Origin: an uncultured Mycoplasmatota bacterium
GTDB taxonomy: Bacteria > Bacillota_I > Bacilli_A > RF39 > UBA660
Direction: 5' to 3'
Assembly (NCBI GenBank): GCA_900544605.1
Contig: UQVP01000001.1
Span: 21,858-85,857 of the forward strand
Length of the DNA stretch: 64,000 nt
Below are positions 1 through 56,706 of this stretch, one piece after another. Every line of letters starts with the position of its first letter. Position 1 is the stretch's first letter. The position numbers and the translations under genes are program-made. Under the pieces are notes generated by a model. The model was not told the DNA's origin and did no database searches. It saw only the letters and a list, made by a program, of their open reading frames with translations.

Positions 1-962
1 TTGTTTTTAATATATTTCTTTAAAGTATTATTTAACTCCAATTTATCTTTAAAAAAGTTATCAAAATCTTTAACATCATAAATTTTTTTATTAGATAAAT
101 TTAAATTATCAAAAGACACAAAATTTATATATTTCCCAGGAAATAATTCTTCCAGTGAAAACATATATTTTTTATCTTTCTCTAATCCTTGGGAAATATT
201 ATATTCAACTATTTCATTTAAAGTTTCTTCATATCCTAACTTTATTTCATCATAATCATTAAATACAGTCAAATCAGAGTCTAAAAAATCTCTAACATTA
301 CTATTTTGTGTACTATTAACAATTATATTATCTGTATTAGGATATACATATATTTGATCTAATTTTTTTAGACTTAGTTGAGTATTAACATCAAAAATTC
401 TAATACTTTCTATTTCATCATCAAAAAATTCTAATCGCACTGGATTTTCCATAGATACAGGATATATATCAATTACAAAACCTCTAACAGCAAAATCACC
501 TGTTTTTTCTACCAAAGTTTCCTTTTCATATCCTAATTCTACCAAACTTTCAACTAATTTATTAAAATTAAATGTCATACCTGCTTTTAAATCTAAAATA
601 CCATTAAGAAATCTATGTTTGTCAGGAAGATATTTTAAATATCCCATTAAATTAGTTATAACTATATAGTTATTATTTTTAGATAACTCTATCATAGTTT
701 CAATTCTTTTTATTTTTAATTCAGGCGATGATGCTAAAACTTCACTAGTTAAAAAGTTATCCATGGGAAATAATAATACTTTTTCTGTATAATTATTTAT
801 ATATTGATACAAAGTATTAGCTTCATACAAACTATTTGTTACAACTAAAAAACCTTTATTTTTCTTTTTAAGTAATTCATAGCAATACATAGCTTTTAGT
901 TCACTATTTAAACCAACTATATTTGAAGCGTCAAAATTAAATTTTGAACTTATTATTTTCAT
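1..962 (-). CDS. mfd: Transcription-repair coupling factor Mfd, N-terminal part (5' partial: start codon at 960-962, gene runs off window start)
   Basis: Minus-strand translation from ATG 960-962 (RBS GGAGGTG at 967-975) gives ...VLLFPMDNFLTSEVLASSPELKIKRIETM... and ...ELGYEKETLVEKTGDFAVRGFVIDIYP...NPVRLEFFDDEIESIRIFD, matching remembered B. subtilis Mfd N-terminal motifs; sits downstream of pth as in Bacillus. Absent from the ORF track because there is no in-window stop. Confidence 0.8.
   Translation of the reverse strand, partial: MKIISSKFNFDASNIVGLNSELKAMYCYELLKKKNKGFLVVTNSLYEANTLYQYINNYTEKVLLFPMDNFLTSEVLASSPELKIKRIETMIELSKNNNYIVITNLMGYLKYLPDKHRFLNGILDLKAGMTFNFNKLVESLVELGYEKETLVEKTGDFAVRGFVIDIYPVSMENPVRLEFFDDEIESIRIFDVNTQLSLKKLDQIYVYPNTDNIIVNSTQNSNVRDFLDSDLTVFNDYDEIKLGYEETLNEIVEYNISQGLEKDKKYMFSLEELFPGKYINFVSFDNLNLSNKKIYDVKDFDNFFKDKLELNNTLKKYIKN
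130..145. promoter_or_regulatory. NBS-like 16-mer TATTTCCCAGGAAATA (copy A, inside mfd coding sequence)
   Basis: Exact 16-mer; inverted repeat TATTTCC-ca-GGAAATA; resembles B. subtilis Noc-binding site ATTTCCCGGGAAAT. Confidence 0.5.
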
Positions 963-3930: not shown

Positions 3931-4908
3931 TTAATCACCTTCTAACATTAAAATTAATTTGTCTAATACTAAATTAAGATTACAATTATACTTTAATCTA
4001 TCTTCTATTTTTAATATTGTTAATATTTTGTTTGCTAATTTATCAGTATCATTTTTTGAAGCTATTAATTCTAATATATCTTTGTTTTCTTCAAATATTT
4101 TTTCAGATTTTATTATTTTATAATTTAAAGCCTCATTGTATATTAACAGCAATATTTTTAAATACTCTTGAAAAAGTAATTTATCCTTTAAAATTATTGA
4201 ACATATTGTGTTTTCTTTTAAAAGTGTTTCTTTTTTGTTATTTTCTATAGATTTAATAAATTTAATAACAGCATTTAACAAATTTTTGCTTTGTTCATTT
4301 TGAATAAATTCCATTTGCTTTGTTTTGTCATCAAATATATAATTTGCTACACGTTCTAAATCTGTATTTCCTATTACATTTTTTTTATTTATTAATTTTA
4401 TTTTTTGACATCTTGAAGAAATTGTATCGAGTAACATCTCGGCATTATTTACAACTAATATTGCAACTATATTTTCTTCTGGCTCTTCTAAAAATTTCAA
4501 AATAGAATTTGCTGCTGCTTCATTCATTTTTTCTGCTTGATCTATAATATATACTTTTGTTGATGCTGTAACAGCTTTAGTAGAAAAATCTTTTTGAAGG
4601 CCACTTAATTGGTCTTTTTTTATCCACATACCATCTGGTTTTATTATTTCCAACTCTGTACTATTACCATTATCAATTTGTGTACAAAGATCACAATCAC
4701 CACAAAGATTATGTTCTATATTTTTTGTAGGACATAGTATGGCTTTAGCAAACGATAAAGCAAAATCATAACCTCTATAGTAATTATTAGTTTCTATAAT
4801 ATATGCATGAGAAATATTTTGATTTTTTAATTGTCTATATAATATTTCACAAGCTATATGATTATCTGCATAATATTCACTAAGCATATCATACTCCCTT
4901 TCTATCAA
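3931..4908 (-). CDS. holB: DNA polymerase III delta-prime subunit
   Basis: AAA+ clamp-loader like N-terminus with Cys cluster CGDCDLC; synteny holB-ricT. Confidence 0.8.
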   Translation of the reverse strand: MIEREYDMLSEYYADNHIACEILYRQLKNQNISHAYIIETNNYYRGYDFALSFAKAILCPTKNIEHNLCGDCDLCTQIDNGNSTELEIIKPDGMWIKKDQLSGLQKDFSTKAVTASTKVYIIDQAEKMNEAAANSILKFLEEPEENIVAILVVNNAEMLLDTISSRCQKIKLINKKNVIGNTDLERVANYIFDDKTKQMEFIQNEQSKNLLNAVIKFIKSIENNKKETLLKENTICSIILKDKLLFQEYLKILLLIYNEALNYKIIKSEKIFEENKDILELIASKNDTDKLANKILTILKIEDRLKYNCNLNLVLDKLILMLEGD

Positions 4909-6045: not shown

Positions 6046-7743
6046 CTAATTGTAATTTATTGCATCACTAAATAAATTTTCTATTTCATTTTTATTTTCA
6101 TTTTCATTTTTTAATATCTGATCTATACTTTCTGTTTCTTCAACATATGTATATTGTTTAAGATGTGAATTAAATTCTTTCTTAATTATTTCCCAGGAAA
6201 TATTATCCGTTGAAATAACTTTATAATTATGTTTAAAAACTTTAGCAACTATTTCTTCTATTTTTAAAATATTTTCGTTAAATAGGTCACTATCAGTTTC
6301 TGTATTAAATACATAAATAAGATAATTTTCACTTGCTGCCTTTAAATTTCCATCTAGAATAATAGAAACGTATTTACTATAATCTAGATTTATCAAAAGA
6401 GGCTTTAAATCATCTTCTAATGATTTTATCTTTGTTAATTCTTTTTTATTAAATTTTGCTAAAGTATTATTGATTCTTATTTCCTTTATTTTTTTTAATT
6501 TTTCTTTTATTTCTCGGTTAATCGGTGTAAACGAATTATCAACTTTATATGAATTATTTTCTTTTTTTATTACAGTTTTTGATTCATTTTTATTTTCTAT
6601 TGGTCTTACTGAAAGGTTTTCTTTTATCAAATTTGATACATATTGTTTGTTTTGTGTTTTTTCATAATTGAGTAACTTTAAAATCAATAATTCAAATTGT
6701 AGTCTTTGTACTGTACCTTTTTTTATAACAGATAAATTTTGATTCATTGTATCTATCAAATCAATTAATTCTAATTTTGACAATATTCCAGACATATTTT
6801 TATATACCTCAGTATCATAGTTACTATCAATTAAATATTGTGGTGCTTCTTCAACTATTAATACATTTTTAAAAAACAATATTAATTCCTCTAAAATTTT
6901 AGTAAAGTTTTTACCAGTTTCATCAAAATTATCAATTTTTGTTAAAACTTCATAGACATTTTTATTTAAAATTTCTATTGCAAATTTAGATAATTCTTCT
7001 TGTGTTAGTGTTCCATTAATCAAATGAACATCTTCTACTGTTATTTCATTTTGTGTAAAAGATGAAACTTGATCAAGAATACTTAAAGAATCTCGCATTC
7101 CACCATCAGCTAATCTTGCTATTTCTCTTATACTATCATCTGTTATTTTTATATTTTCTTTATTACAAATATCTTTTAATCTTTTAAAAATACAATTATT
7201 ACTTATTTTTTTAAAATCAAATCGTTGACATCTTGATAAAATAGTTAAAGGTATTTTTTGAGGTTCAGTTGTTGCTAATATGAAAATAGCATGTTTTGGT
7301 GGTTCTTCTAATGTTTTTAATAGGGCATTAAAAGCACCTGTAGTAAGCATATGGACTTCATCAATTATATATATCTTATACTTTCCTAAAGAAGGTACTA
7401 AATTAACTTTATTACGTAATTCTCTTATTTCATCAACACCATTATTTGAAGCTGCGTCTATTTCTATAACATCCACGTGATTTTTATTAATATTTTGTGT
7501 ACAATTAACGCATTTATTACAAGCTACACCATCAACCAGGTTTTCACAGTTTACTGATTTTGCTAATATTTTTGCTATACTTGTTTTACCTGTTCCTCTA
7601 GGTCCCGTAAATAAATAAGCATGATTTATATTACCAAGTTTTAAAGAATTTAATAGTGTTTTTACTATTATATCTTGGCCTACCACATCAGAAAAATCTA
7701 TCGGTCTATATTTTCTATATAATGCTTGATACATATTAATCAC
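6046..7743 (-). CDS. dnaX: DNA polymerase III subunit tau/gamma
   Basis: Walker A GPRGTGKTS, zinc module CNKCVNC, SRC motif (LSRCQRF). Confidence 0.9.
   Translation of the reverse strand: MINMYQALYRKYRPIDFSDVVGQDIIVKTLLNSLKLGNINHAYLFTGPRGTGKTSIAKILAKSVNCENLVDGVACNKCVNCTQNINKNHVDVIEIDAASNNGVDEIRELRNKVNLVPSLGKYKIYIIDEVHMLTTGAFNALLKTLEEPPKHAIFILATTEPQKIPLTILSRCQRFDFKKISNNCIFKRLKDICNKENIKITDDSIREIARLADGGMRDSLSILDQVSSFTQNEITVEDVHLINGTLTQEELSKFAIEILNKNVYEVLTKIDNFDETGKNFTKILEELILFFKNVLIVEEAPQYLIDSNYDTEVYKNMSGILSKLELIDLIDTMNQNLSVIKKGTVQRLQFELLILKLLNYEKTQNKQYVSNLIKENLSVRPIENKNESKTVIKKENNSYKVDNSFTPINREIKEKLKKIKEIRINNTLAKFNKKELTKIKSLEDDLKPLLINLDYSKYVSIILDGNLKAASENYLIYVFNTETDSDLFNENILKIEEIVAKVFKHNYKVISTDNISWEIIKKEFNSHLKQYTYVEETESIDQILKNENENKNEIENLFSDAINYN
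6187..6202. promoter_or_regulatory. NBS-like 16-mer TATTTCCCAGGAAATA (copy B, inside dnaX coding sequence)
   Basis: Exact 16-mer; encodes ISWEII in dnaX (minus strand), a different frame and peptide from copies A and D. Confidence 0.5.
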
Positions 7744-7787: not shown

Positions 7788-8207
7788 TTACCTCTTTTCT
7801 TTAAAAAAAGATTTTATATAATCAATATATTCATTCGATATTTTACATTCACAAACTTGTAATTTTGTTTCTATATTATATTTACTTTTAAATCCAAAAT
7901 TCATATTTTTTAAGCCATAATAAATTTTACTTATTCGTGACTGTTCTATTGCACCGTAGCACATTAAACAGGGTTCCATCGTTGTATATATTTCACATCC
8001 ATCTAAATGCCATGTTTTTAATTTTTTACAAGCTCTTTCTATAGCAATAATTTCTGCATGTTTAGTAGTTATTTGTTTATTTTCTTTTTTATTATAAGCT
8101 TTAGATATAATTTTTCCATTTTTAACAATAATGGCGCCTATAGGTACTTCTTGCTTTTTATATGCTTTTAGTGCTTGTTTTAAAGCTAAATCCATAAAAT
8201 TGTTCAT
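7788..8207 (-). CDS. tadA: tRNA-specific adenosine deaminase
   Basis: HAE...PCLMCYGA deaminase zinc motifs. Confidence 0.9.
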   Translation of the reverse strand: MNNFMDLALKQALKAYKKQEVPIGAIIVKNGKIISKAYNKKENKQITTKHAEIIAIERACKKLKTWHLDGCEIYTTMEPCLMCYGAIEQSRISKIYYGLKNMNFGFKSKYNIETKLQVCECKISNEYIDYIKSFFKEKR

Positions 8208-8224
8208 TTTTTATCACCTTTATA

Positions 8225-8242
8225 ATGTTTCACGTGAAACAT
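8225..8242. promoter_or_regulatory. parS: parS site 1 (aTGTTTCACGTGAAACAt, perfect palindrome)
   Basis: Exact match to the Bacillus-type parS consensus TGTTNCACGTGAAACA. Confidence 0.8.
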
Positions 8243-8257
8243 AAATCTATTTTGCAA

Positions 8258-8275
8258 TGTTCCACGTGGAACATC
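8258..8275. promoter_or_regulatory. parS: parS site 2 (aTGTTCCACGTGGAACAt, symmetric variant)
   Basis: 16/16 palindrome with CACGTG core, one symmetric substitution relative to site 1; abuts the 3' U tract of ffs. Confidence 0.7.
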
Positions 8276-8277
8276 AT

Positions 8278-8355
8278 AAAAAAAGCACACACATTTAGAG
8301 GATCTTAAGGCTGCTATTTTCCAATTCTGACCTGGTTCAAACATAAATGTTGTGC
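8278..8355 (-). ncRNA. ffs: Signal recognition particle RNA, small (4.5S-type)
   Basis: Minus-strand RNA gcacaacauuuauguuugaACCAGGUCAGaauuGGAAaauAGCAGCCuuaagauccucuaaaugugugugcUUUUUUU carries the conserved domain-IV signature CCAGGUCAG...GGAA...AGCAGCC of E. coli 4.5S; termini pair (gcacaacauuua / uaaaugugugugc) and end in a U tract. Ends are approximate (+/-5 nt). Confidence 0.8.
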
Positions 8356-8434
8356 ATTAATAATATATTATATTTTTAATATTTTTTCAACACTTATATG
8401 GTCTAATTTATAATTAAATTAAAAATTACTATAT

Positions 8435-8452
8435 ATGTTTCACGTGAAACAT
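8435..8452. promoter_or_regulatory. parS: parS site 3 (TGTTTCACGTGAAACA inside a 26-bp palindrome atatatgtttcacgtgaaacatatat)
   Basis: Perfect core identical to site 1. Confidence 0.8.
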
Positions 8453-8473
8453 ATATAATCTCTTATATAAATT

Positions 8474-8489
8474 ATTTCCCAGGAAATAA
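8474..8489. promoter_or_regulatory. NBS-like 16-mer TATTTCCCAGGAAATA (copy C, intergenic between parS sites 3 and 4)
   Basis: Exact 16-mer. Confidence 0.5.
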
Positions 8490-8505
8490 TTTTAAAAAGA
8501 AAAGA

Positions 8506-8523
8506 ATGTTTCACGTGAAACAT
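8506..8523. promoter_or_regulatory. parS: parS site 4, also the stem of a bidirectional intrinsic terminator just downstream of gyrA
   Basis: agaaTGTTTCACGTGAAACAttct flanked by T runs on both strands; gyrA stop at 8529. Confidence 0.75.
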
Positions 8524-8528
8524 TCTTT

Positions 8529-10991
8529 TTATTTTTCATTTGTTGATTCAACGACATCTTCGGTTCCATCATTATCATCTTTTTTTAATATTGATATATT
8601 TCCGACCTTTTGGTTATCTTTTAAATTTATCAATCTTACACCTTGAGCTACTCTTCCAGTGTTAGATACTTGCGTTAAATTTAAACGTATGATTATTCCA
8701 GAATTAGTAACAATCATTAAATCTTCATCACCTTCAACCATTCTGAAAGCAACTATATTACCGTTTTTTTCTGTTATATTTAAAGCTTTTACACCTTTGC
8801 TACCACGATGTGTCATTCTGTATTCATCTATGCTAGTTTTCTTTCCGTATCCATTTTCAGTAACTATTAATACGTTTTTATTTGGATCAGAAACTTCACA
8901 TCCTACAGCTTTTCCATCATCAACTTCAATTCCCTTAACACCGGCAGCACTTCTACCCATAACTCTGATTTCATCTTCTTTAAATCTGATCATTCTTCCA
9001 TTTGAAGATGCTATTAATATTTGATTATTTCCGGTAGTTTTCTTAACATCTAGTAATTCATCATCTTCTCTTAGTGTTATTGCAAATTTACCGTTTGATC
9101 TAATACTATCAAATTCTTCAAGCTTAGTTCTCTTAACTAAACCTGTTTGTGTACAAAATACAATATATTTAGATTCGTCATTGTTTTCTATCTTTAACAT
9201 AGCTTTAACAACTTCTTCTTTTTCTATAGGTAATAAATTAATTATTGGAATTCCTTTTGATTGTCTATTAAATAAAGGAATTTCATAACCTTTTAATCTA
9301 TATACTTTTCCTTTATTTGTAAAGAATAATATATAATCATGAGTTGTCATAGAAAGTAAATATTGTACAAAATCTTCTTCATTTGTAGACATTCCTTTAA
9401 TTCCAACTCCACCTCTATTTTGAGATTTAAAATTATCACTTAATACACGTTTTATATATCCCTTGTTAGTCAAAGTAATTACAATATCTTCAACCGGTAT
9501 TAATGATTCATCTTCTATATAATCTATAGCTGTCATATCAATTTTTGTTCTTCTATCATCACTGTATTTATTTTTAATTTCAGTTAATTCTAACTTAATT
9601 ATATCTAATACTTTTTGTTCAGAACCTAAAATTGCCTTTAATTCTTTAATACGTTCTAATAAATCATTTAATTCATTTTCAATCTTATCTTTTTCTAGAC
9701 CAGTTAATCTTCTTAACTTCATTTCCAAAATAGCTTCACATTGAATTTCATCTAAAGGAAATTTAGACATTAACTGTTCTTTAGCTATATCATCTGTCTT
9801 TGAAGCTTTAATTATCTTAATAACTTCATCAATATTGTCTAAAGCAACTTTTAATCCTTCTAAAATATGAACTCTAGCTTCACATTTGTTCAAATCAAAT
9901 CTTGTTCTTCTTATAATAATTTCTTTTTGGTAGTCAATATATTTGGTTATGATATCTTTAAGTCCAAGAGTTTTTGGAACACCATTATCAAGCATTAAAA
10001 ATATAATTCCATAATTTGTTTGAAATTGAGTATGTTTATATAAATTATTTAAAACAACTTGTGGATTTGCATCCCTTTTTAATGTAATAGTTATTTTAAT
10101 ACCATCTTTTAAGTCGGTATGATAATCAGAAATACCATCTATTGTTTTATTATGTACTAATTCTGCAACTTTATTTTTTAATTCCATTGTATTAACACCA
10201 TATGGAACTTCATCAATTACTATATAATTTTTTCCATCTTTTTCTTCTATAGTAGCATTACTTCTTATAGTAATAGTACCACGGCCTGTTTCATAAGCTT
10301 TTTTTATACCACTATTACCTAAAATTATGCCACCAGTAGGAAAATCTGGCCCTTTTATATATTCCATCAAACCTAAAGTATCAATGTCTGGATTATCAAT
10401 ATAAGCAATACAACCATCTATTACTTCACCTAAATTATGTGGTGGAATATTAGTTGCCATACCCACAGCAATACCCATTGTTCCATTAACTAATATGTTA
10501 GGAAACCTTGATGGTAATATTGATGGTTCTTTTTCTGATTCATCAAAGTTTGGAATAAAATTAACAGTATCTTTATTAATATCTCTTAGTAATTCTAATG
10601 ATATTTTTGATAATCTAGATTCAGTATAACGCATTGCTGCTGCTCCATACCCTTCAATATTACCAAAATTACCGTGTCCGTCCACTAACATATGACGATA
10701 ATTAAAATCTTGAGCCATTCTTACCATTGCTTCATATATTGAAGAATCTCCATGTGGGTGATATTTTCCCATTACATCTCCGACTATACGAGCTGATTTT
10801 TTATGAGGTTTGTCTGGTGTATATCCAGATTCATACATTGACCATAAAATTCTACGATGAACTGGCTTTAAACCGTCACGTAAATCTGGTAAAGCACGTG
10901 ATACGATTACACTCATAGAATACTCTAAAAATGATGATTTTACCTCTTCTACTATGTTATTTTCTTCTAATCTATCTCTACTATGATCCAT
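8529..10991 (-). CDS. gyrA: DNA gyrase subunit A
   Basis: 820 aa; N-terminal QRDR-region motifs and C-terminal beta-pinwheel repeats; gyrB-gyrA synteny. Confidence 0.95.
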
Positions 10992-14185: not shown

Positions 14186-14635
14186 TTATTGGTTTTTTCG
14201 ACTTCTTAAAATTGATTCTAAACGAGATGCACGTAAAATTTGACTTTCTAATGTAAATATAGAAATATCTAAATTCAAATTAGTATCATTTTTAAAAGTA
14301 ATATTGGAACCCTTATTACATCTAACATAATTTTTTAAATTATTTAAAGAAATCCAAGCACATTCTACTAATCTTGGTGATGCGGTTGGAAAAAAGATAA
14401 TACTTCTACTCTCTTCTACTATGATAGGTAATTTATAGCTCATTCCTAACATATTTTTAGTACCTTCATATCTACCTTGATAATTACTCCCATAATAACA
14501 ACAGCTTTCATTTATAATTTCAAAAACAGGTTTATCAATTATGTATTCATTTCCTATTTCTATTATTCTAGTTGTGGTTTCATCTATAGGAACGATTGCT
14601 AAAGTACCAATATTAATTTCATAACTATGCAACAT
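14186..14635 (-). CDS. comK: ComK-family competence transcription factor homolog (likely true start at ATG 14633-14635 rather than the ORF-track start at 14695)
   Basis: ...SYEINIGTLAIVPIDE...CCYYGSNYQGR...KLPIIVEESRSIIFFPTASPRLVECAWISL... matches B. subtilis ComK blocks (SYEVNGATIAVLPEE / CRFFGSSYAGR / KPPIMVDPSNQIFLFPTLSSTRPQCGWIS, recalled from memory). A strong RBS AGGGAGGTG lies 7 nt upstream of the internal Met (M21 of the track ORF). Confidence 0.75.
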   Translation of the reverse strand: MLHSYEINIGTLAIVPIDETTTRIIEIGNEYIIDKPVFEIINESCCYYGSNYQGRYEGTKNMLGMSYKLPIIVEESRSIIFFPTASPRLVECAWISLNNLKNYVRCNKGSNITFKNDTNLNLDISIFTLESQILRASRLESILRSRKNQ

Positions 14636-14700
14636 TAAATTCACCTCCCTACTTATAAATTTCCACAAAAAATGGAAATTTCCTTTCTTATACATTAATT

Positions 14701-16042: not shown

Positions 16043-17404
16043 TTATTTAATTTGATTAACAATTTTATTAATTTGTTCTTCTAATTCATGATTAGTTTTT
16101 ATTTCTTTTTTTATTTTATCTACTGAATGCATAACAGTTGTATGATCTTTTCCACCAAATTCTAATCCTATTTTAGGCAATGATTCAGCTAAATAAGTTC
16201 TACAAATATACATTCCTACTTGCCTTGGTACAGAAATACTTGCCATCCTTTTTTTACTTTTAATATCTTCAACAGATATATTGTAAGCATTTGCAATTAA
16301 TTGTTGTACTTGTTCAATCTTATTTTTTGATATAATACTTTTTACAAAATAGTCTTTTAGTGCTTCTGTTGCAAGTTCAATTGTAATATCAGACCCATTC
16401 ATTATGGTTGCATAAGCGAAAACTCTAGTTATTGCACCTTCTAATTTTCTAATATCAGATGTACAATTGCTGGCAATATATTCTTTAACCTCTATAGGAA
16501 AATCATTGCACACATCATTAGCTTCTATTTTTTTGTCTATTATATCCATTCTTAATTTAAAATCTGGTGGTAGAATATCTATTGTTAATCCCCAATTGAA
16601 TCTTGTTCTAAGTCTTTCTTCTAATTTTTTTAAATCATCTGGTGATCTATCAGAAGAAATAATTATTTGCTTATTATTACAATGTAATTCATTAAATGTG
16701 TTGAAAAATTCTTGTTGTGTTTTGCTAGCTATTTCTAGGTATTGAATATCATCAATCATTAAAACATCAACATTTCTATATTTATTTTTAAATTCATCAA
16801 CAGCATCAAAATTATTTTCATCTTTATTTTTTCTATAAATATTTAGAAAATCATCAACAAATTTTTCACTTGTGACATATAAAACTTTTTTATTACTATT
16901 TTTAACAATATAATTACCTATCGCGTGCATTAAATGTGTTTTTCCTAGTCCACTACTACCATATATAAACAAAGGATTGTACATAAAACCAGGTTGTTCT
17001 GCTACCGCTAAAGAAGTAGCCTTCGCAAATTTATTACTATTTCCCACAATAAAATTATCAAAAGTATATTTAGGGTCGAGATTAGATTCATATAGATTAT
17101 TAGATGGAACCCCTACTTTATCAACGTCAATTGTAACATTTTTAACAATTTCTTCTTCTAATAAATATTCAAATTTAAAATTGCTACCAGTTATCTCTGT
17201 GAAAATTTCTTCTATTAAATTATTATAATTTTCTTTTAAATGTTTCTTATGTACTTGCATGGGAACTAAAATTTTGGCTGTATTATCGTTTAGTTCTATT
17301 AATTTAGTGTCCATAAACCATGTTTCATATAGTATAGGATCTAATTCAGCTTTTATTTTTTCAAGAAACAAGCTCCATATTGTATTAATATCCACACAAA
17401 ACAC
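16043..17404 (-). CDS. dnaA: Chromosomal replication initiator protein DnaA
   Basis: AAA+ Walker A GSSGLGKTHL, C-terminal DnaA-box-binding domain; flanked by DnaA-box clusters. Confidence 0.95.
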   Translation of the reverse strand: MFCVDINTIWSLFLEKIKAELDPILYETWFMDTKLIELNDNTAKILVPMQVHKKHLKENYNNLIEEIFTEITGSNFKFEYLLEEEIVKNVTIDVDKVGVPSNNLYESNLDPKYTFDNFIVGNSNKFAKATSLAVAEQPGFMYNPLFIYGSSGLGKTHLMHAIGNYIVKNSNKKVLYVTSEKFVDDFLNIYRKNKDENNFDAVDEFKNKYRNVDVLMIDDIQYLEIASKTQQEFFNTFNELHCNNKQIIISSDRSPDDLKKLEERLRTRFNWGLTIDILPPDFKLRMDIIDKKIEANDVCNDFPIEVKEYIASNCTSDIRKLEGAITRVFAYATIMNGSDITIELATEALKDYFVKSIISKNKIEQVQQLIANAYNISVEDIKSKKRMASISVPRQVGMYICRTYLAESLPKIGLEFGGKDHTTVMHSVDKIKKEIKTNHELEEQINKIVNQIK

Positions 17405-17758
17405 CTCACTTTAATAACAGTTAACATTATTTTACACCAAAAAAATATAAAAACCAATATTAAACTGTGGAAAAAAGCAAAAATCGACAAATTAACACAA
17501 TTTTCCACACAAATTGACATTAAATAATAAGATAAAAACATACTTTTCAACATAAGATGTGGAAAAGTAATTAACATATAATTTTGATTGTTATTAAGTT
17601 TTCCACATATACTGTGGAAAATATGGTTAGATATTATAAAATATATTAAAAATACTTGTGGAAAAAAGTTATAATAATAGCTAAAAAATATTTGACAAAT
17701 AAGAAAAATATCTATATAATGGTTAAAGCGATGAAATATAGGCTTTAGGAGGTGGAAT
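17405..17758. promoter_or_regulatory. oriC: oriC part 2 (dnaA-rpmH intergenic): cluster of at least 7 DnaA boxes (TTTTCCACA / TGTGGAAAA)
   Basis: Boxes at 17466-17474, 17501-17509, 17557-17565, 17599-17607, 17613-17621 and 17657-17665, plus ATATCCACA at 17389-17397. A 0A-box-like TGTCGAT (reverse complement of aaatcgaca at about 17483-17492) lies between boxes. Confidence 0.8.
17692..17720 (+). promoter_or_regulatory. Consensus sigma-A promoter for rpmH-rnpA (TTGACA-17-TATAAT)
   Basis: ttgaca at 17692-17697, 17-nt spacer, tataat at 17715-17720. Confidence 0.7.
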
Positions 17759-23097: not shown

Positions 23098-23794
23098 AAA
23101 GGAATTTATACAAGAAATAAATAAATTAGGTATTCAATTAACTGATGAACAATTACACCAACTAGATAAATATTATCAACTTTTAATAGAATGGAATAAA
23201 GTTATGAATTTAACTGGGATAACAGAAGAAAAAGAAGTATATTTGAAACATTTTTATGATAGTTTGACAATTGCTAAAGTTATAGATTTAACAAAAGAAA
23301 AAAGTTTGTGTGATGTAGGAAGTGGAGCTGGGTTTCCTGGAATGGTATTAAAAATAGTGTTTCCTAATCTAAAGGTTACATTAGTTGATTCTTTAAATAA
23401 GAGAATAAAGTTTTTAACAGAAGTAGCTAATGAACTAAATTTAAAAGATATTGCTTTAGTTCATGCTAGAGCAGAAGATTTTGCTAAGAATAACCGTGAA
23501 AAATTTGATGTTGTAACAGCTCGTGCTGTCGCACCAATAAATGTGTTATTAGAATATTGTTTACCTTTAACAAAAGTTGGGAAATATTTTATTGCCTTAA
23601 AAGGAAATATTTCCCAGGAAATAATTTTATTAAATAATTCATTAACAAAAATAGGTGGGAAATTAATTAATTCACAAGAATTTTTACTACCAATAGAAAA
23701 TAGTAATCGTTCATTATTAGTAATTACGAAAGAAAATCCAACTTCAAAAAAATATCCACGTCATCCAAAAGATATAAAAAATAACCCTCTATAG
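23090..23794 (+). CDS. rsmG: 16S rRNA (guanine527-N7)-methyltransferase RsmG
   Basis: SAM motif DVGSGAGFPG; mnmG-rsmG synteny. Confidence 0.9.
   Translation: MNKKEFIQEINKLGIQLTDEQLHQLDKYYQLLIEWNKVMNLTGITEEKEVYLKHFYDSLTIAKVIDLTKEKSLCDVGSGAGFPGMVLKIVFPNLKVTLVDSLNKRIKFLTEVANELNLKDIALVHARAEDFAKNNREKFDVVTARAVAPINVLLEYCLPLTKVGKYFIALKGNISQEIILLNNSLTKIGGKLINSQEFLLPIENSNRSLLVITKENPTSKKYPRHPKDIKNNPL
23608..23623. promoter_or_regulatory. NBS-like 16-mer TATTTCCCAGGAAATA (copy D, inside rsmG coding sequence)
   Basis: Exact 16-mer; encodes NISQEII in rsmG. Confidence 0.5.
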
Positions 23795-23885: not shown

Positions 23886-25190
23886 ATGGATAATAATAGA
23901 AAAGTGGTAGAACTTCCTTTAGATGATGTTTTACCTAATAGATTTCAACCAAGAATTAAATTTAATGAAGAAGCAATAACAGAATTATCAGAATCAATCA
24001 AAGAACACGGTGTTATTCAACCAATTGTTGTACGCCCTGTAGGAGATAGATATGAAATAATAGCAGGAGAAAGAAGATTTAAAGCTTCCACTTTAGCTGG
24101 ACTTTCAACTATTCCAGCTATTATAATAAATTTAAATGATAAAGATAGTGCTGAAGTTGCTTTAATAGAGAATGTACAAAGACAAGATTTGACACCAATT
24201 GAAGAAGCTATTTCTTATAAAAAAATCTTAGATATGGGGTATTTAAAACAAGAAGATTTAGCTGAAAAAATAGGAAAAAGTCAATCTGCTATAGCAAATA
24301 AATTAAGATTATTGAATTTAGATGAAGATGTTCAAGAAGCTTTATTAAATGGTAAAATTTCAGAAAGACATGCCAGATCTTTATTAAAATTAACAAATAA
24401 AGAAGATCAAGTAAAATTATTAAATAAAATCATTACAGAAAGATTAACTGTTAGAAAAACAGACGAGGAAATAAACAAGATGTTAAATGGAGAAAACAAA
24501 GAAGTAAATAAAGATATTGAAGTATTAAATTTAGATGAGCCTGTTATTATTCCTTCTTTTGAAGCAGATAATAAATTTAATATACCATCAAATCCGATAA
24601 TTGAAAATGAAACATCCCCACAAGAAAGAAAAGCACAAGATATAATTAATCCTTTCTTAAATGTAGATTTATCTTCAGAAACAACTACTAAAGAAAATGA
24701 AGATAATCTACCAAAATTTAATGATTTGATTAAAAATACTGATGAAGTTCAAGAACCTACGGAAAATAAAGAAAAAGAAGTTAGTAATTTCTTTAATATT
24801 CCAACATCAGAAGAAATAGATAATATGTTGGCATCTCCTGAAAAAGTTTCTGAAAAAGCTGATAATTACCAATTTAAAAATGATTTTGTTCCACAAGACG
24901 AGAGTACTTCTACACCGGATTTTACAATATCTCCTAATTTTGGAATTCCAACTTTTGATGACTCAATTTTTAATAATTCATCATCAAATTCTAATTCTGT
25001 AAAAAATGAATTGCCAGAAGTAAAAAGAACAGATACTTTTGTAACTGGTGACATAAAAACTGTTATTAATACTTTAAGGGATTGTGCAAATACTATAGAA
25101 AAATATGGTTTTGATGTAGATACAGAAGAATTTGATTTAGGTGATATGTACCAAGTAGTATTTAAAGTTCACAAAAAACCAAATGAATAA
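23886..25190 (+). CDS. ParB/Noc-family DNA-binding protein with long low-complexity acidic C-terminal extension
   Basis: N-terminal ParB box ...FQPRIKFNEEAITELSESIKEHGVIQPIVVRPVGDRYEIIAGERRF..., HTH KSQSAIANKLRLL; about 180 extra C-terminal residues rich in E/N/S/T/F; located at the noc position after rsmG; no parA/soj downstream. Confidence 0.8.
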   Translation: MDNNRKVVELPLDDVLPNRFQPRIKFNEEAITELSESIKEHGVIQPIVVRPVGDRYEIIAGERRFKASTLAGLSTIPAIIINLNDKDSAEVALIENVQRQDLTPIEEAISYKKILDMGYLKQEDLAEKIGKSQSAIANKLRLLNLDEDVQEALLNGKISERHARSLLKLTNKEDQVKLLNKIITERLTVRKTDEEINKMLNGENKEVNKDIEVLNLDEPVIIPSFEADNKFNIPSNPIIENETSPQERKAQDIINPFLNVDLSSETTTKENEDNLPKFNDLIKNTDEVQEPTENKEKEVSNFFNIPTSEEIDNMLASPEKVSEKADNYQFKNDFVPQDESTSTPDFTISPNFGIPTFDDSIFNNSSSNSNSVKNELPEVKRTDTFVTGDIKTVINTLRDCANTIEKYGFDVDTEEFDLGDMYQVVFKVHKKPNE

Positions 25191-53777: not shown

Positions 53778-54692
53778 ATGAAAAAAATCATTTTAATCAT
53801 TTTAGCAATTATTTTTATCCCATATATTATTGTAAGTTTGTTCATAAGAACTGATGATATAAAATTTTATTATAAAGAAGGAATGAATGTTAGGGTAAAA
53901 AGAGAACAAACTAATACTATAGAAGTTGTTCCTTTTGAAGATTATGTTGTTGGTGTTTTAGCAGGAGAAATGCCAGTCAATTTTGAGTTAGAAGCATTAA
54001 AAGCTCAAGCAGTAGCAGCTAGAACATATGTCATGAAAAAAATGAGTGATAATAGAAACCAAGATTATGATATTGTTGATACAGTTCAAAATCAAGTATA
54101 TATTAGTGATGAAGAGCTAAAAGATAAATGGCAAGATAAATATCAAGAACGAATTAATAAGGTAAAAACAGCTGTATTAGAAACAAAAGGAGAATACTTG
54201 TCTTATAATGGCAAAGTAATAGAAGCTTTCTTTTTTTCTACAAGTGTAGGAAAAACAGAAAACAGTGAAGAAGTTTTTAAAGAGTCTCTTCCATATCTTA
54301 GAAGCGTAGATTCGACTTGGGATGAAGAAGTATCACCTGTATTTAATGATTCAAAAGAATACAGTTTACAAGAATTTTTTGAACGTCTAAATTTAAAATA
54401 CTCCGATCAAATTAATGTAGAAGTTTTAAATACTACAAGTACTGGCAGAATAAAAAATATCAAAATTAATGGCAAAAAATTTACTGGCAGTGAAGTATAT
54501 AAAAATTTAAATTTACGTTCAACTTTCTTTGAAATAAATCAGGTTGGTAGTAATGTTATTATCAATACCAAAGGATATGGACATGGCGTAGGAATGAGTC
54601 AATATGGAGCTCTAGCAATGGCAAAAAAAGGTTATAAATATGATGAAATCTTAAAATACTATTATCAAAATGTTCAAATTGAAAAAATTTAA
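53778..54692 (+). CDS. spoIID: Stage II sporulation protein D (lytic transglycosylase)
   Basis: ...VVGVLAGEMPVNFELEALKAQAVAARTYVMKK... SpoIID family block. Confidence 0.85.
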   Translation: MKKIILIILAIIFIPYIIVSLFIRTDDIKFYYKEGMNVRVKREQTNTIEVVPFEDYVVGVLAGEMPVNFELEALKAQAVAARTYVMKKMSDNRNQDYDIVDTVQNQVYISDEELKDKWQDKYQERINKVKTAVLETKGEYLSYNGKVIEAFFFSTSVGKTENSEEVFKESLPYLRSVDSTWDEEVSPVFNDSKEYSLQEFFERLNLKYSDQINVEVLNTTSTGRIKNIKINGKKFTGSEVYKNLNLRSTFFEINQVGSNVIINTKGYGHGVGMSQYGALAMAKKGYKYDEILKYYYQNVQIEKI

Positions 54693-54746
54693 AAAAATTA
54701 GTATAAATAAATCACTTTCTGTTCACACTTAAAATGAGGTGAGAAA

Positions 54747-55376
54747 GTGAAAAGAAGAAAATTAAAAAGACCAGTAGTATACGGTTTATATGCTTTAGGA
54801 TTTGTAATGTTATTAGGAACGCTATATCTTATAGATGGAATGTTCCCAACTAATAGTTTTAATGGTATAAATGATGATTATGTAAATAAGACTGTTTTAG
54901 AAGAAGATGTTCCTGTTGTTAATACAGAAAACACTATTATAAGACCATATTTAGTTAATGATGTAAGTATAGTTAAAAATTATTATGATTATAAAAGTGA
55001 AGCAGAAAATCAAGAAAAATCATTAATCTATTATGAAAATACTTATTTACAAAATAGTGGTGTTAGTTATGGAAGAGAAGCATCATTTGATGTAGTTTCT
55101 ATCTTAGATGGTACTGTTACATCTATTAAAGAAGATCAAAACCTAGGTAAAATTGTAGAAGTAACACATAGTAATGATATTATAAGCATTTATCAAAGTT
55201 TAAGCGATGTTAAAGTAAAAGAAAATCAAGAAATTAAACAAGGCGATATTATTGGAACTAGTGGTACTTGCAATATTGAGAACGATTTAAATAATCATTT
55301 ACACTTTGAAATGATTGTAAAAGGATCAATCGTAAATCCTGAAAATTACTATGACAAAAAAATTTCTGAATTATAG
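54747..55376 (+). CDS. spoIIQ: M23-family peptidase-like membrane protein, SpoIIQ-like by position (spoIID-X-spoIIID-mbl, Clostridial synteny)
   Basis: N-terminal TM anchor; C-terminal M23 HLHFE motif; first HxxxD motif not obvious (possibly degenerate). Confidence 0.5.
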   Translation: MKRRKLKRPVVYGLYALGFVMLLGTLYLIDGMFPTNSFNGINDDYVNKTVLEEDVPVVNTENTIIRPYLVNDVSIVKNYYDYKSEAENQEKSLIYYENTYLQNSGVSYGREASFDVVSILDGTVTSIKEDQNLGKIVEVTHSNDIISIYQSLSDVKVKENQEIKQGDIIGTSGTCNIENDLNNHLHFEMIVKGSIVNPENYYDKKISEL

Positions 55377-55438
55377 AGCTTAGCTCTTTTTTAGAATAAA
55401 AGCACCTCTAAATTATATAATTTATTAAGGGGTGTAAT

Positions 55439-55693
55439 ATGTTGAATAATATTTCTAATCGTGTTTTAGAAGAAGCTAATTATATTATTGATACTCATGA
55501 AACAATAAGAGAACTAGCAAAAATTTTTAGAGTTTCAAAAAGTACCGTTCATAAGGATTTGCATGAAAGATTACTTAAAATAGATAAAGATAAGTTTGAT
55601 ATTGTAGATAAAATTTTAAAATATCATACCGAAATAAGACATATTAGAGGTGGCGAATCGACAAAACAAAAATATTTAAATATAAATAGTTAA
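55439..55693 (+). CDS. spoIIID: Stage III sporulation protein D
   Basis: 84 aa HTH; ...AKIFRVSKSTVHKDL... matches SpoIIID. Confidence 0.9.
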   Translation: MLNNISNRVLEEANYIIDTHETIRELAKIFRVSKSTVHKDLHERLLKIDKDKFDIVDKILKYHTEIRHIRGGESTKQKYLNINS

Positions 55694-55701
55694 AAAGGAA
55701 A

Positions 55702-56706
55702 GTGAATGTTAAAATGTTTGCAAAAGATATAGGAATAGATTTAGGAACAGCTAATGTTTTAGTTTACATTAAAGGACAAGGCATAGTTCTAAATGAACCA
55801 AGTGTTGTAGCAATAGATGCTGAAACAAGAAAACCATTAGCAGTTGGAAGTGAAGCTAGAGAAATGTTAGGAAGAACTCCAGGAACAGTGATTGCTATTA
55901 GACCTATGAAAGATGGTGTAATTGCTGATTTTGATATAACAGAAACAATGCTTAATTATTTTATAAAAAAGATTAATGGTAAAAGTGTATTTACAAGACC
56001 ACGAATATTAATTTGTTGTCCATCAAATATAACTGGTGTAGAGAAAAATGCTATTAAAGAAGCTGCTGAAAGGACAGGGGCTAAAAGAGTATTCTTAGAA
56101 GAAGAACCGAAAGTAGCTGCTATAGGAGCAGGACTTGATATATCAAAACCTGGAGGAAATATGGTTATTGATATTGGTGGGGGAACTACTGATATAGCAG
56201 TATTATCTTTAGGTGGTATAGTTACTAGTGCATCAATTAAAACAGCCGGAAATACTTTTGATACAGATATTGTAAAATATATAAAAGATAAATATAAATT
56301 GCTAATTGGAGATAGAACAGCTGAAGAAATAAAAATTACAATTGGTAATGTATATAAAGCTGATGAAAAAGAAAAAATGCAAGTTAGGGGTAGAGATATG
56401 GTATCTGGATTACCTAGTACAATATCTATTACTTCTAAAGAAGTAGAAGAAGCATTAAAAGATAGTATAGATACAATTATTCATACAGCGAAAAGTGTTT
56501 TAGAAAAAACTCCTCCAGAATTATCCGCAGATATTATTGATAAAGGAATTGTCATTACTGGTGGTGGTGCTTTAATTAGAGGTTTTAGTGAATTACTATC
56601 ACATGAACTAAAAGTACCGGTATTTATTGCAGAAAGCCCTTTAACCTGTGTTGTTGAAGGTGCTGGAATGATGTTAGATAACATAAATAAATTAATAATT
56701 AGATAA
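55702..56706 (+). CDS. mbl: Rod-shape determining actin homolog MreB/Mbl
   Basis: DLGTANVLVY phosphate-1 motif; after spoIIID as mbl is. Confidence 0.9.
   Translation: MNVKMFAKDIGIDLGTANVLVYIKGQGIVLNEPSVVAIDAETRKPLAVGSEAREMLGRTPGTVIAIRPMKDGVIADFDITETMLNYFIKKINGKSVFTRPRILICCPSNITGVEKNAIKEAAERTGAKRVFLEEEPKVAAIGAGLDISKPGGNMVIDIGGGTTDIAVLSLGGIVTSASIKTAGNTFDTDIVKYIKDKYKLLIGDRTAEEIKITIGNVYKADEKEKMQVRGRDMVSGLPSTISITSKEVEEALKDSIDTIIHTAKSVLEKTPPELSADIIDKGIVITGGGALIRGFSELLSHELKVPVFIAESPLTCVVEGAGMMLDNINKLIIR

What the first reader, a model, noticed from the sequence alone, without database searches (positions are those of the whole stretch)
8220..8530. Four parS sites packed into about 300 bp around the SRP RNA gene, between tadA and gyrA
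The 16-bp palindrome TGTTTCACGTGAAACA is an exact instance of the Bacillus-type parS consensus, the centromere bound by Spo0J/ParB. Three identical copies occur at 8226-8241, 8436-8451 and 8507-8522. A symmetric variant, TGTTCCACGTGGAACA, lies at 8259-8274. All four sit in one 320-bp intergenic region about 9 kb from dnaA. In B. subtilis parS sites are scattered singly over the origin-proximal fifth of the chromosome. A tight four-site array bracketing ffs is unusual. Copy 4 doubles as the stem of the gyrA terminator. No parA/parB operon is in this window, so the cognate ParB is either encoded elsewhere or is the atypical ParB-family protein at 23886.
Basis: partly seen in the sequence, partly recalled or inferred. 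Interest (0 to 1): 0.65.

Follow-up and report, generated by a model that had tools for sequence, protein, structure and literature searches.

The report
Clustered parS centromere sites beside oriC
Four copies of the chromosome-segregation "centromere" sequence parS lie in the 321-bp gap between gyrA and tadA, about 9 kb from the replication origin of an uncultured gut bacterium; this is an ordinary kind of bacterial centromere, but its whole lineage keeps it at this one spot and some relatives have expanded it to 24 tandem copies.

Summary
TGTTTCACGTGAAACA occurs exactly at 8226, 8436 and 8507. No other copy with up to 3 mismatches exists in the 64 kb.

The parS reading is well supported.
- The sites lie about 9 kb from a DnaA-box cluster and the GC-skew flip.
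- They are identical in four conspecific strains and positionally conserved in sister species, while their flanks diverge.
- All 40 related genomes with a complete gyrA-ffs spacer carry 2-24 parS there (median 7). One has a perfect 24 x 26-bp tandem array.
- None was found in 750 kb of non-origin DNA from the clade.
- Variation among 355 sites falls on the positions known to be degenerate in parS.

The ParB-family gene at 23886 is not the likely binder. It is Noc-type: specificity residues Q-K-N-R, and its best matches are Noc structures. Four Noc-binding-site-like 16-mers are present, one of them inside this spacer.

Canonical soj-parB with parS-type residues is widespread in the clade. I did not find it in about 98 kb around this species' origin, so the cognate ParB is inferred, not shown.

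Tight parS clusters are the norm in bacteria. This is a new member of a known kind and of moderate interest.

The parts
8226..8241 (.). parS-1, exact TGTTTCACGTGAAACA. It lies 18 nt upstream of the tadA start codon region (RBS AAAGGTGAT).
   Evidence: Conserved in strains L101-L104 and sisters L007/L008, where L008 carries the symmetric variant TGTTCCACGTGGAACA.
8258..8273 (.). parS-2, symmetric variant TGTTCCACGTGGAACA, beginning 3 nt after the 3' end of ffs.
   Evidence: A parS at this position is kept in L007-L012. The two changes fall on positions 5 and 12, the known degenerate positions.
8276..8361 (-). ffs, the small SRP RNA gene, embedded in the cluster.
   Evidence: Rfam RF00169, 56.3 bits, E 1.2e-9. 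Found downstream of the parS array in every related locus that reaches it.
8362..8390 (-). Sigma-70-type promoter of ffs (TTGAAA-17-TATATT).
   Evidence: Conserved in the alignments.
8436..8451 (.). parS-3, exact, inside a 28-nt palindrome TATATA...TATATA, upstream of the ffs promoter.
   Evidence: Positionally conserved in L007 and L009-L012, decayed in L008.
8473..8488 (.). NBS-like site TATTTCCCAGGAAATA, one mismatch to the B. subtilis Noc-binding site, between parS-3 and parS-4.
   Evidence: The sisters L007/L008 have the exact NBS TATTTCCCGGGAAATA at the same place.
8500..8529 (.). Perfect 30-nt palindrome containing parS-4 (8507-8522). It overlaps the gyrA stop codon by one base and is a terminator-like hairpin with a T-run on both strands.
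   Evidence: The palindromic extension is kept in L007/L008 but not in most relatives.
8529..10991 (-). gyrA, the upstream flank of the spacer.
   Evidence: Pfam DNA_topoisoIV and DNA_gyraseA_C on the identical gene in L101.
7788..8207 (-). tadA (tRNA adenosine deaminase), the downstream flank of the spacer.
   Evidence: Pfam MafB19-deam and dCMP_cyt_deam_1.
23886..25190 (+). Noc-type ParB-family protein, 434 aa: ParB_N + HTH_ParB (residues 1-205), a long low-complexity linker, and a conserved C-terminal ~40 aa. It is the predicted binder of the NBS-like sites, not of parS.
130..145 (.). NBS-like site TATTTCCCAGGAAATA.
6187..6202 (.). NBS-like site TATTTCCCAGGAAATA, inside dnaX. Conserved in L007-L009, L012 and L040.
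23608..23623 (.). NBS-like site TATTTCCCAGGAAATA at the 3' end of rsmG, about 260 bp upstream of the Noc-type gene. The sisters have the exact NBS here.
17466..17665 (.). DnaA-box cluster (6 x TTTTCCACA) upstream of dnaA. This is oriC, the reference point for calling the sites origin-proximal.

Best explanation
The four palindromes are functional parS sites and together form the origin-proximal centromere and ParB loading zone of this chromosome. A canonical ParB (Spo0J-type, with R173/G201 specificity residues and an N-terminal ParA-activating peptide), encoded elsewhere in the genome, would bind each 16-mer as a dimer. By the established ParB mechanism it then binds CTP, closes into a clamp and slides onto flanking DNA. 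That builds one partition complex about 9 kb from oriC, which Soj/ParA and SMC condensin use to segregate and organise the origin region. Packing several sites into 300 bp raises the loading rate at a single point.

The Noc-type protein at 23886 is a separate paralogue that reads the NBS-like 16-mers.

Shown here: sequence identity to parS, clustering, origin proximity, strong conservation at one syntenic spot across a whole clade, and the parS-like pattern of tolerated variation.

Inferred: the existence of ParB in this species, its binding to these sites, and all downstream steps.
For: 1. The sites match the consensus exactly and are far above chance: 4 observed against 0.32 expected with up to 3 mismatches.
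2. They lie about 9 kb from oriC.
3. All four sites are identical in four conspecific strains whose spacer is 99.2% identical.
4. They are positionally conserved in sister species, while only the 16-mers, ffs and the ffs promoter survive divergence.
5. The synteny gyrA-[parS array]-ffs-tadA-dnaX holds across 80 related genomes. All 40 complete spacers carry at least 2 parS (median 7, maximum 24).
6. Outside that spacer there is one 2-mismatch hit in 1.35 Mb of origin loci and none in 750 kb of other loci.
7. Among 355 sites, variation concentrates at positions 1, 5, 12 and 16, the known parS degeneracy. G2 and A7, the bases that separate parS from NBS, are essentially invariant (PMC7383237).
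8. Canonical soj-parB is widespread in the clade. ParB is 292 aa with N-terminal KRALGRGL and GKSR...MGHAR, which is R173/G201.
9. L013 carries a parS array and soj on one contig.
Against: 1. No soj and no canonical parB were found in the window, or in about 98 kb of contiguous sequence of this species from window -23 kb to +74 kb.
2. In 14 related metagenome loci soj-parB directly follows tilS-ftsH. In this species that place holds a pilin-like gene, rpsP, khpA, cdsA and rseP instead.
3. The cognate ParB is therefore inferred only from relatives and from the conservation of the sites.
4. No binding data exist.
5. A genome-wide count of the 16-mer for this species was not possible.
Confidence: 0.8

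Rival explanations
1. The Noc-type protein at 23886 is the only ParB-family protein of this species and binds these parS sites itself, either with dual parS/NBS specificity or having taken over after loss of canonical ParB.
For: It is the only ParB-family gene found in about 98 kb around oriC. It is conserved across the clade next to rsmG. Residue 184 is N rather than the Noc-typical K. Dual-specificity variants exist in the mutational scan.
Against: All 30 orthologues carry Q173, K179 and R201. In PMC7383237, parS-specific variants have an invariant R173, and Q173/R201 read the NBS bases when K is at 179 or 184. NBS-like sites matching that prediction are present and conserved. Canonical ParB appears to coexist with the Noc-type gene in a relative: L117 has the Noc-type gene, and ParB P0160's longest listed contig has the same length, 323,453 bp, though this match is not verified. 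The protein lacks the ParA-activating N-terminal peptide.
Confidence: 0.07
2. The palindromes are mainly RNA or DNA hairpins, acting as intrinsic terminators or insulators for gyrA, ffs and tadA, and match parS only by resemblance.
For: Site 4 lies in a 30-nt perfect palindrome followed by a T-run and scores as a bidirectional terminator. Site 2 starts 3 nt after ffs. Symmetric T5/A12 to C5/G12 swaps preserve pairing.
Against: Sites 1-3 have no T-run. Only 5 of 62 first sites in relatives have a T-rich tail, and most have little palindromic extension. L010 and L011 have a separate conventional terminator hairpin next to parS-4. The commonest variants (TGTTCCACGTGAAACA/T, 72 sites) break hairpin symmetry. 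Tandem arrays of up to 24 copies make no sense as terminators.
Confidence: 0.03
3. The sites are relics: this species has lost soj-parB and the sites no longer function.
For: soj-parB is absent from its commonest clade position after ftsH and from about 98 kb around oriC. This subclade has the smallest arrays, 2-4 sites. One site has decayed in L008.
Against: There are three perfect 16-mers plus a symmetric variant. They are identical across strains and retained across species whose flanking spacer has diverged beyond alignment. The whole block soj-parB-mscS-DUF951-abgT-ychF-rpsF-ssb-rpsR is missing from the region, and rpsF, ssb and rpsR must exist somewhere, so relocation is more likely than loss.
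Confidence: 0.06
4. The sites are copies of a dispersed REP/MITE-type repeat, or operators of an unrelated CACGTG-binding regulator of ffs and tadA.
For: They are palindromic and intergenic. Two of them flank promoter and 5' regions.
Against: Only the 16-mer is shared and the flanks differ between copies. There are no copies elsewhere in the window, its flanks, or 750 kb of clade DNA. In relatives most sites are far from any promoter and number up to 24.
Confidence: 0.03

Closest known systems
Bacillus subtilis parS / Spo0J (ParB) chromosomal centromere sites, consensus TGTTNCACGTGAAACA
   Same: The 16-bp sequence is identical. The degenerate positions (5 and its symmetric partner 12) are the same. 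The sites are origin-proximal. The relatives' ParB is the same kind of protein, with the N-terminal LG-R/K-GL peptide and GKSR...GHxR.
   Different: B. subtilis has eight sites scattered over about 0.75 Mb. Here all sites seen lie in one 321-bp spacer. That spacer is unlinked from the parAB operon, and the loci holding soj-parB in relatives contain no parS.
Tight origin-proximal parS clusters of other bacteria: Pseudomonas aeruginosa (four sites near oriC), Caulobacter crescentus, Corynebacterium glutamicum, Myxococcus xanthus (22 sites)
   Same: Several parS are concentrated at one origin-proximal locus that serves as a single ParB/SMC loading zone (papers listed; statement).
   Different: The literature read here describes such sites as separated by a few kb. 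Here the whole cluster spans 297 bp, and in relatives sites are 26-280 bp apart, sometimes as perfect tandem repeats.
Plasmid iterated centromeres such as F sopC (tandem 43-bp units, each with a 16-bp inverted repeat; from my own knowledge)
   Same: Some relatives have strict head-to-tail units each holding one palindromic ParB site: L026 has 24 x 26 bp at 100% identity and L084 has 2 x ~4.6 x 63 bp.
   Different: The window's own four sites are irregularly spaced (32, 178 and 71 bp) with unrelated flanks. The element is chromosomal, and the site is the chromosomal parS sequence.
Noc / NBS nucleoid-occlusion system of Bacillota
   Same: The protein at 23886 sits at the ancestral noc position after rsmG, matches Noc structures best, and has Q173/K179/R201. 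The 16-mer TATTTCCCAGGAAATA differs by one base from the NBS, and the sisters have the exact NBS.
   Different: These are not the four sites of the finding. The protein lacks Noc's N-terminal membrane-targeting segment, has N instead of K at position 184, has a linker of about 180 aa, and scores just below the NCBIfam noc cut-off.

Membership tests
Chromosomal parS (ParB-binding centromere, Bacillota-type) | 16-bp palindrome matching TGTTNCACGTGAAACA | tested here: met
   Three exact copies and one symmetric 2-mismatch variant, changed at positions 5 and 12.
Chromosomal parS (ParB-binding centromere, Bacillota-type) | Origin-proximal location | tested here: met
   The sites are about 9 kb from the DnaA-box cluster, dnaA and the GC-skew flip.
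Chromosomal parS (ParB-binding centromere, Bacillota-type) | Few copies, not a dispersed repeat; enrichment over chance | tested here: met
   4 observed against 0.32 expected in the window. No copies in the 10-kb flanks on either side, nor in the stretch out to about -23 kb (L115). 0 copies in 750 kb of non-origin clade DNA. The whole genome of this species was not available.
Chromosomal parS (ParB-binding centromere, Bacillota-type) | Purifying selection on the 16-mer, with variation only at positions ParB tolerates | tested here: met
   Strain, sister and subclade alignments. Position matrix of 355 sites.
Chromosomal parS (ParB-binding centromere, Bacillota-type) | Cognate ParB with parS-type specificity residues (R173, G201) encoded in the same genome | tested here: inconclusive
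   Present in many clade relatives. Not found in about 98 kb of this species. The rest of the genome could not be reached.
Chromosomal parS (ParB-binding centromere, Bacillota-type) | ParB binds and spreads from the site (ChIP-seq, EMSA) | not testable with these tools
   This needs an experiment.
Noc/NBS system (considered for the protein at 23886 and the TATTTCCCAGGAAATA sites) | Specificity residues Q173, K179, K184, R201 | tested here: inconclusive
   Q-K-N-R, so 3 of 4 match. PMC7383237 states that K at either 179 or 184 suffices. The exact variant QKNR was not found in the held supplementary files.
Noc/NBS system (considered for the protein at 23886 and the TATTTCCCAGGAAATA sites) | Score above the curated NCBIfam TIGR04285 (nucleoid_noc) cut-off | tested here: not met
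   298.2 bits against a cut-off of 315. Only model positions 1-204 of 255 align, because of the long linker. A clade ParB scores 236.3.
Noc/NBS system (considered for the protein at 23886 and the TATTTCCCAGGAAATA sites) | N-terminal membrane-targeting amphipathic segment | tested here: not met
   The protein starts MDNNRKVVELPL, and the ParB_N domain begins at residue 6. The Noc structures align from their residue ~26. By the definition of the ORF listing, no upstream in-frame start is possible.
Noc/NBS system (considered for the protein at 23886 and the TATTTCCCAGGAAATA sites) | NBS 16-mers dispersed on the chromosome | tested here: met
   Four identical one-mismatch sites in 64 kb, against 0.45 expected with up to 3 mismatches. 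Exact NBS sites sit at orthologous places in the sister species.
Rho-independent terminator | GC-containing hairpin followed by a U-run, conserved at the 3' end of the gene | tested here: inconclusive
   Met for site 4 only and not for sites 1-3. Not conserved in relatives, where 5 of 62 qualify.
Iterated (sopC-like) tandem centromere | Head-to-tail repeat units, each with one binding palindrome | tested here: not met
   Window spacing is 32, 178 and 71 bp with unrelated flanks. The feature is met in some relatives, such as L026, L029, L045, L078 and L084.

The most novel reading that the evidence does not exclude
This species has lost or never had a canonical ParB, and the conserved Noc-type Q-K-N-R protein serves both the NBS-like sites and the parS cluster. 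That protein has no ParA-activating peptide and no membrane helix. It would be a natural dual-specificity ParB/Noc intermediate acting on a centromere array.

A weaker and much more likely form is this. The gyrA-ffs spacer is a lineage-wide centromere that changes quickly in copy number, from 2 to 24 sites including perfect 26-bp tandem arrays. It is unlinked from parAB and has not been described.
Probability: 0.07. Interest if true: 0.7.

Novelty: new member of a known kind. Interest (0 to 1): 0.4.

Why it matters
For this window it fixes the annotation. The gyrA-tadA spacer holds the chromosome's centromere sites, the SRP RNA gene and a Noc-type site. The nearby ParB-family gene is noc-like, not parB.

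More broadly, a whole order-level group of uncultured, small-genome gut Bacilli keeps its parS sites at one syntenic spot. Copy number there runs from 2 to at least 24.
- This is a natural series for asking how parS number and spacing set ParB clamp loading and SMC flux.
- It is a practical marker of the origin region in metagenome-assembled genomes.
- It explains why many of those assemblies break just after gyrA.

Tried and rejected
1. Hunt for the cognate ParB in this species.
- tblastn of the ParB N-terminal domain and of a B. subtilis Soj sequence written from memory against the window found only the Noc-type gene.
- The 10 kb beyond the right end holds cotJC, cotJB and, in one strain, a prophage.
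- The 10 kb beyond the left end holds pth, mfd, spoVT, dut, metG, tatD and ksgA.
- I walked further left through a homologue search and a metagenome scan to tilS-ftsH and 8 kb beyond. No soj, parB, ychF, rpsF, ssb or rpsR turned up.
- Look-ups of Soj and ParB clusters all landed in other species.

2. The variant QKNR was not found in the held supplementary files of PMC7383237.

3. Terminator hypothesis: rejected as the conserved function.

4. REP/MITE hypothesis: rejected, because the copies share no flanks and no dispersed copies exist.

5. An exact DnaA-box search was uninformative. The one-mismatch count located oriC.

6. Helical phasing of the four sites (32, 178 and 71 bp) shows no consistent pattern, so I did not pursue it.
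Full report
**Observation.** The 16-mer TGTTTCACGTGAAACA occurs exactly at 8226-8241, 8436-8451 and 8507-8522. These are the only matches with up to three mismatches in the 64-kb window. Shuffles expect 0.32, and none of 100 reach four. The sites lie in the 321-bp gap between the gyrA stop (8529) and the tadA start (8207), both on the minus strand. The SRP RNA gene (RF00169, 56.3 bits) is at 8361..8276 on the minus strand, between sites 2 and 3.

GC skew changes sign at about 17-18 kb. dnaA is at 16043-17404. Six TTTTCCACA DnaA boxes lie at 17466-17665. The cluster is therefore about 9 kb from oriC.

**Anatomy.** Read in the direction of transcription (minus strand), the spacer holds these features in order:
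- The gyrA stop codon.
- parS-4, inside a perfect 30-nt palindrome (8500-8529) followed by a T-run. This scores as a terminator on both strands.
- An NBS-like 16-mer at 8473-8488.
- parS-3, in a 28-nt palindrome.
- The ffs promoter, TTGAAA-17-TATATT, at 8390..8362.
- ffs itself.
- parS-2, three bases after the end of ffs.
- parS-1, 18 nt before the tadA ribosome-binding site and start.

Only the 16-mer is shared between copies. The flanks are unrelated.

**Organism and relatives.** The exact proteins of the window occur on human-gut-type metagenome contigs. A DnaN-based scan of species-representative genomes returned 80 loci with 65-89% identity. All are uncultured MAGs labelled Bacilli, Tenericutes or Mycoplasmatota, and they include Firmicutes bacterium CAG:822, Ca. 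Pelethosoma and Ca. Coprosoma. Where complete, these genomes are 1.26-1.54 Mb. The window is about 25% G+C.

**Conservation.**
- Four conspecific strains have a spacer 99.2% identical, with all four parS and the NBS-like site intact.
- Two sister species (spacer 85-89% identical) keep parS at the same four positions. They show symmetric T5/A12 to C5/G12 swaps, and one site has decayed in L008.
- In the next relatives (L009-L012) the spacer has diverged so far that only the parS cores, ffs and the ffs promoter align.
- Across all 80 loci the order gyrA-[parS array]-ffs-tadA-dnaX holds wherever the contig reaches.
- All 40 complete gyrA-ffs spacers contain at least two parS (median 7, maximum 24).
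- Some arrays are strict tandem repeats. L026, from a circular HiFi MAG, has 24.0 copies of a 26-bp unit at 100% identity. L084 has two blocks of 63-bp units. L075 has a 332-bp higher-order repeat.
- Many short-read contigs stop inside the array.
- Outside this spacer I found one 2-mismatch hit in 1.35 Mb of origin loci and none in 750 kb of other loci from the clade.
- Among 355 sites, variation is concentrated at positions 1, 5, 12 and 16. G2 and A7, the bases that distinguish parS from the Noc-binding site, are almost invariant (PMC7383237 as read).

This pattern is what selection for ParB binding predicts. It is not what a hairpin or a mobile repeat predicts. The commonest variants are asymmetric. 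Only 5 of 62 first sites in relatives are followed by a T-rich tail. L010 and L011 have a separate conventional terminator hairpin next to the site.

**The ParB-family gene at 23886.**
- It has ParB_N and HTH_ParB domains in residues 1-205.
- It matches Noc structures best: 7NG0 at 219.6 bits and B. subtilis Noc 7OL9 at 189.2, against B. subtilis Spo0J 6SDK at 174.5.
- At the four specificity positions defined in PMC7383237 it reads Q-K-N-R. So do 29 of 30 orthologues across the clade, and the last reads QKQR.
- That paper reports that parS-specific variants have an invariant R173. It also reports that Q173 and R201 read the two NBS-specific bases, provided K is at 179 or 184.
- The protein lacks about 32 N-terminal residues that the clade's canonical ParBs have, including KRALGRGL. 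It also lacks the roughly 25 N-terminal residues of Noc that precede the aligned region.
- It has a poorly conserved linker of about 180 aa and a conserved C-terminal ~40 aa.
- It scores 298.2 bits on NCBIfam nucleoid_noc, just below the cut-off of 315.
- Matching this, TATTTCCCAGGAAATA (one mismatch from the NBS) occurs four times in the window, at 130, 6187, 8473 and 23608. The exact NBS occupies the orthologous places in the sister species.

I conclude that this protein is a Noc-type paralogue that reads the NBS-like sites. It is very unlikely to be the parS binder.

**The cognate ParB.** Canonical soj-parB is widespread and well conserved in the clade. Soj is 84-97% identical and ParB 72-100% identical across the 120 best clusters listed for each. 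ParB is 292 aa with GKSR...MGHAR, which is R173/G201. It belongs to a block, soj-parB-mscS-DUF951-abgT-ychF-rpsF-ssb-rpsR, whose upstream neighbour varies:
- ftsH in many species.
- polA-fhs in another.
- rsmG in L013, which also carries a parS array on the same contig.

No parS lies near these operons.

In the species of the window I assembled about 98 kb of contiguous context, from window -23 kb to +74 kb, from overlapping loci that are 99.3-99.6% identical. It contains no soj, no canonical parB and none of the block's genes. After ftsH it has a pilin-like gene, rpsP, khpA, cdsA and rseP instead. rpsF, ssb and rpsR must exist somewhere, so relocation of the block is more likely than loss. 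Even so, the ParB of this species remains inferred, not shown.

**Mechanism.** From established knowledge of ParB, and not tested here: ParB dimers nucleate at each parS, bind CTP, close into clamps and slide onto neighbouring DNA. The resulting complex is moved by ParA/Soj and loads SMC condensin, which aligns the chromosome arms from that point. Several sites in 300 bp would act as one high-rate loading point. This fits the argument that closely placed sites avoid SMC collisions (10.1101/2020.12.04.411900). Site 4 may also serve as the gyrA terminator in this species.

**Comparison and novelty.** The sequence and the inferred function are those of Bacillota parS. The arrangement differs from B. 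subtilis, which has eight sites over about 0.75 Mb. It agrees with the general bacterial habit of one or a few closely placed sites (clusters in Pseudomonas, Caulobacter, Corynebacterium and Myxococcus). It is tighter than those, it is unlinked from parAB, and in relatives it resembles plasmid-type iterated centromeres. Three literature searches found no description of such arrays in this clade. I rate the window's feature a new member of a known kind. The clade-wide array is the more interesting by-product.

**Verdict.** The parS interpretation is supported at about 0.8. The suggestion that the 23886 protein is the binder is not supported. Interest is moderate (0.4).

Noticed in passing
window 130-145, 6187-6202, 8473-8488, 23608-23623: There are four identical NBS-like 16-mers, TATTTCCCAGGAAATA, one mismatch from the B. 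subtilis Noc-binding site. All share the same asymmetric centre and the same orientation on the + strand. Sister species have the exact palindromic NBS at three of these places (8473, 6187, 23608); the fourth lies outside the loci compared.
   Followed up: partly
window 23886-25190 (+): This is a Noc-type ParB-family protein. It lacks both the ParA-activating peptide and Noc's N-terminal membrane-targeting segment. It has a poorly conserved low-complexity linker of about 180 aa and a conserved C-terminal ~40 aa. Specificity residues Q-K-N-R are essentially invariant across the clade. How a Noc without a membrane anchor would work is unexplained.
   Followed up: partly
L026 17344-17968; also L029, L053, L023, L054, L030, L031, L045, L078, L084: Relatives carry strict tandem parS arrays just after gyrA. 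L026, a circular HiFi MAG, has 24.0 copies of a 26-bp unit at 100% identity. Periods in other species are 26-28, 37-39, 42 and 63-64 bp. Many short-read MAG contigs end inside the array, so true lengths are probably underestimated.
   Followed up: partly
window 14186-14695 (-): A ComK-family gene (Pfam PF06338 on the identical gene in L001) lies between dnaN and recF, inside the otherwise classical dnaA-dnaN-recF-gyrB-gyrA cluster.
   Followed up: no
L115 13434-20148 versus L105, L113, L126 and others: In 14 related metagenome loci soj-parB directly follows tilS-ftsH. In this species that position holds a pilin-like (N_methyl) gene, rpsP, khpA, cdsA, rseP and an ABC transporter. The conserved block soj-parB-mscS-DUF951-abgT-ychF-rpsF-ssb-rpsR has different upstream neighbours in different species of the clade.
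   Followed up: partly
window 53778-56706 and flanks (L098 17203-20131; L003 21041-21305; L101 15594-16124; L099 8939-9944): The lineage has small, low-GC genomes and its MAGs are often labelled Tenericutes or Mycoplasmatota. Yet it carries sporulation genes: spoIID, spoIIID, spoIIR, spoVT, cotJB/cotJC and a bofA-like gene.
   Followed up: no
L098 1-9526 (just beyond the right end of the window): In one strain a prophage-like insertion carrying a serine recombinase, an integrase and HTH regulators interrupts the cotJC (Mn_catalase) gene. The gene product is 115 aa there, against 185 aa in strains L099 and L100.
   Followed up: no
window 17466-17665: The DnaA boxes upstream of dnaA are all the variant TTTTCCACA (six copies). 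The four exact TTATCCACA boxes in the window lie elsewhere, at 4620, 12654, 51082 and 58105.
   Followed up: no
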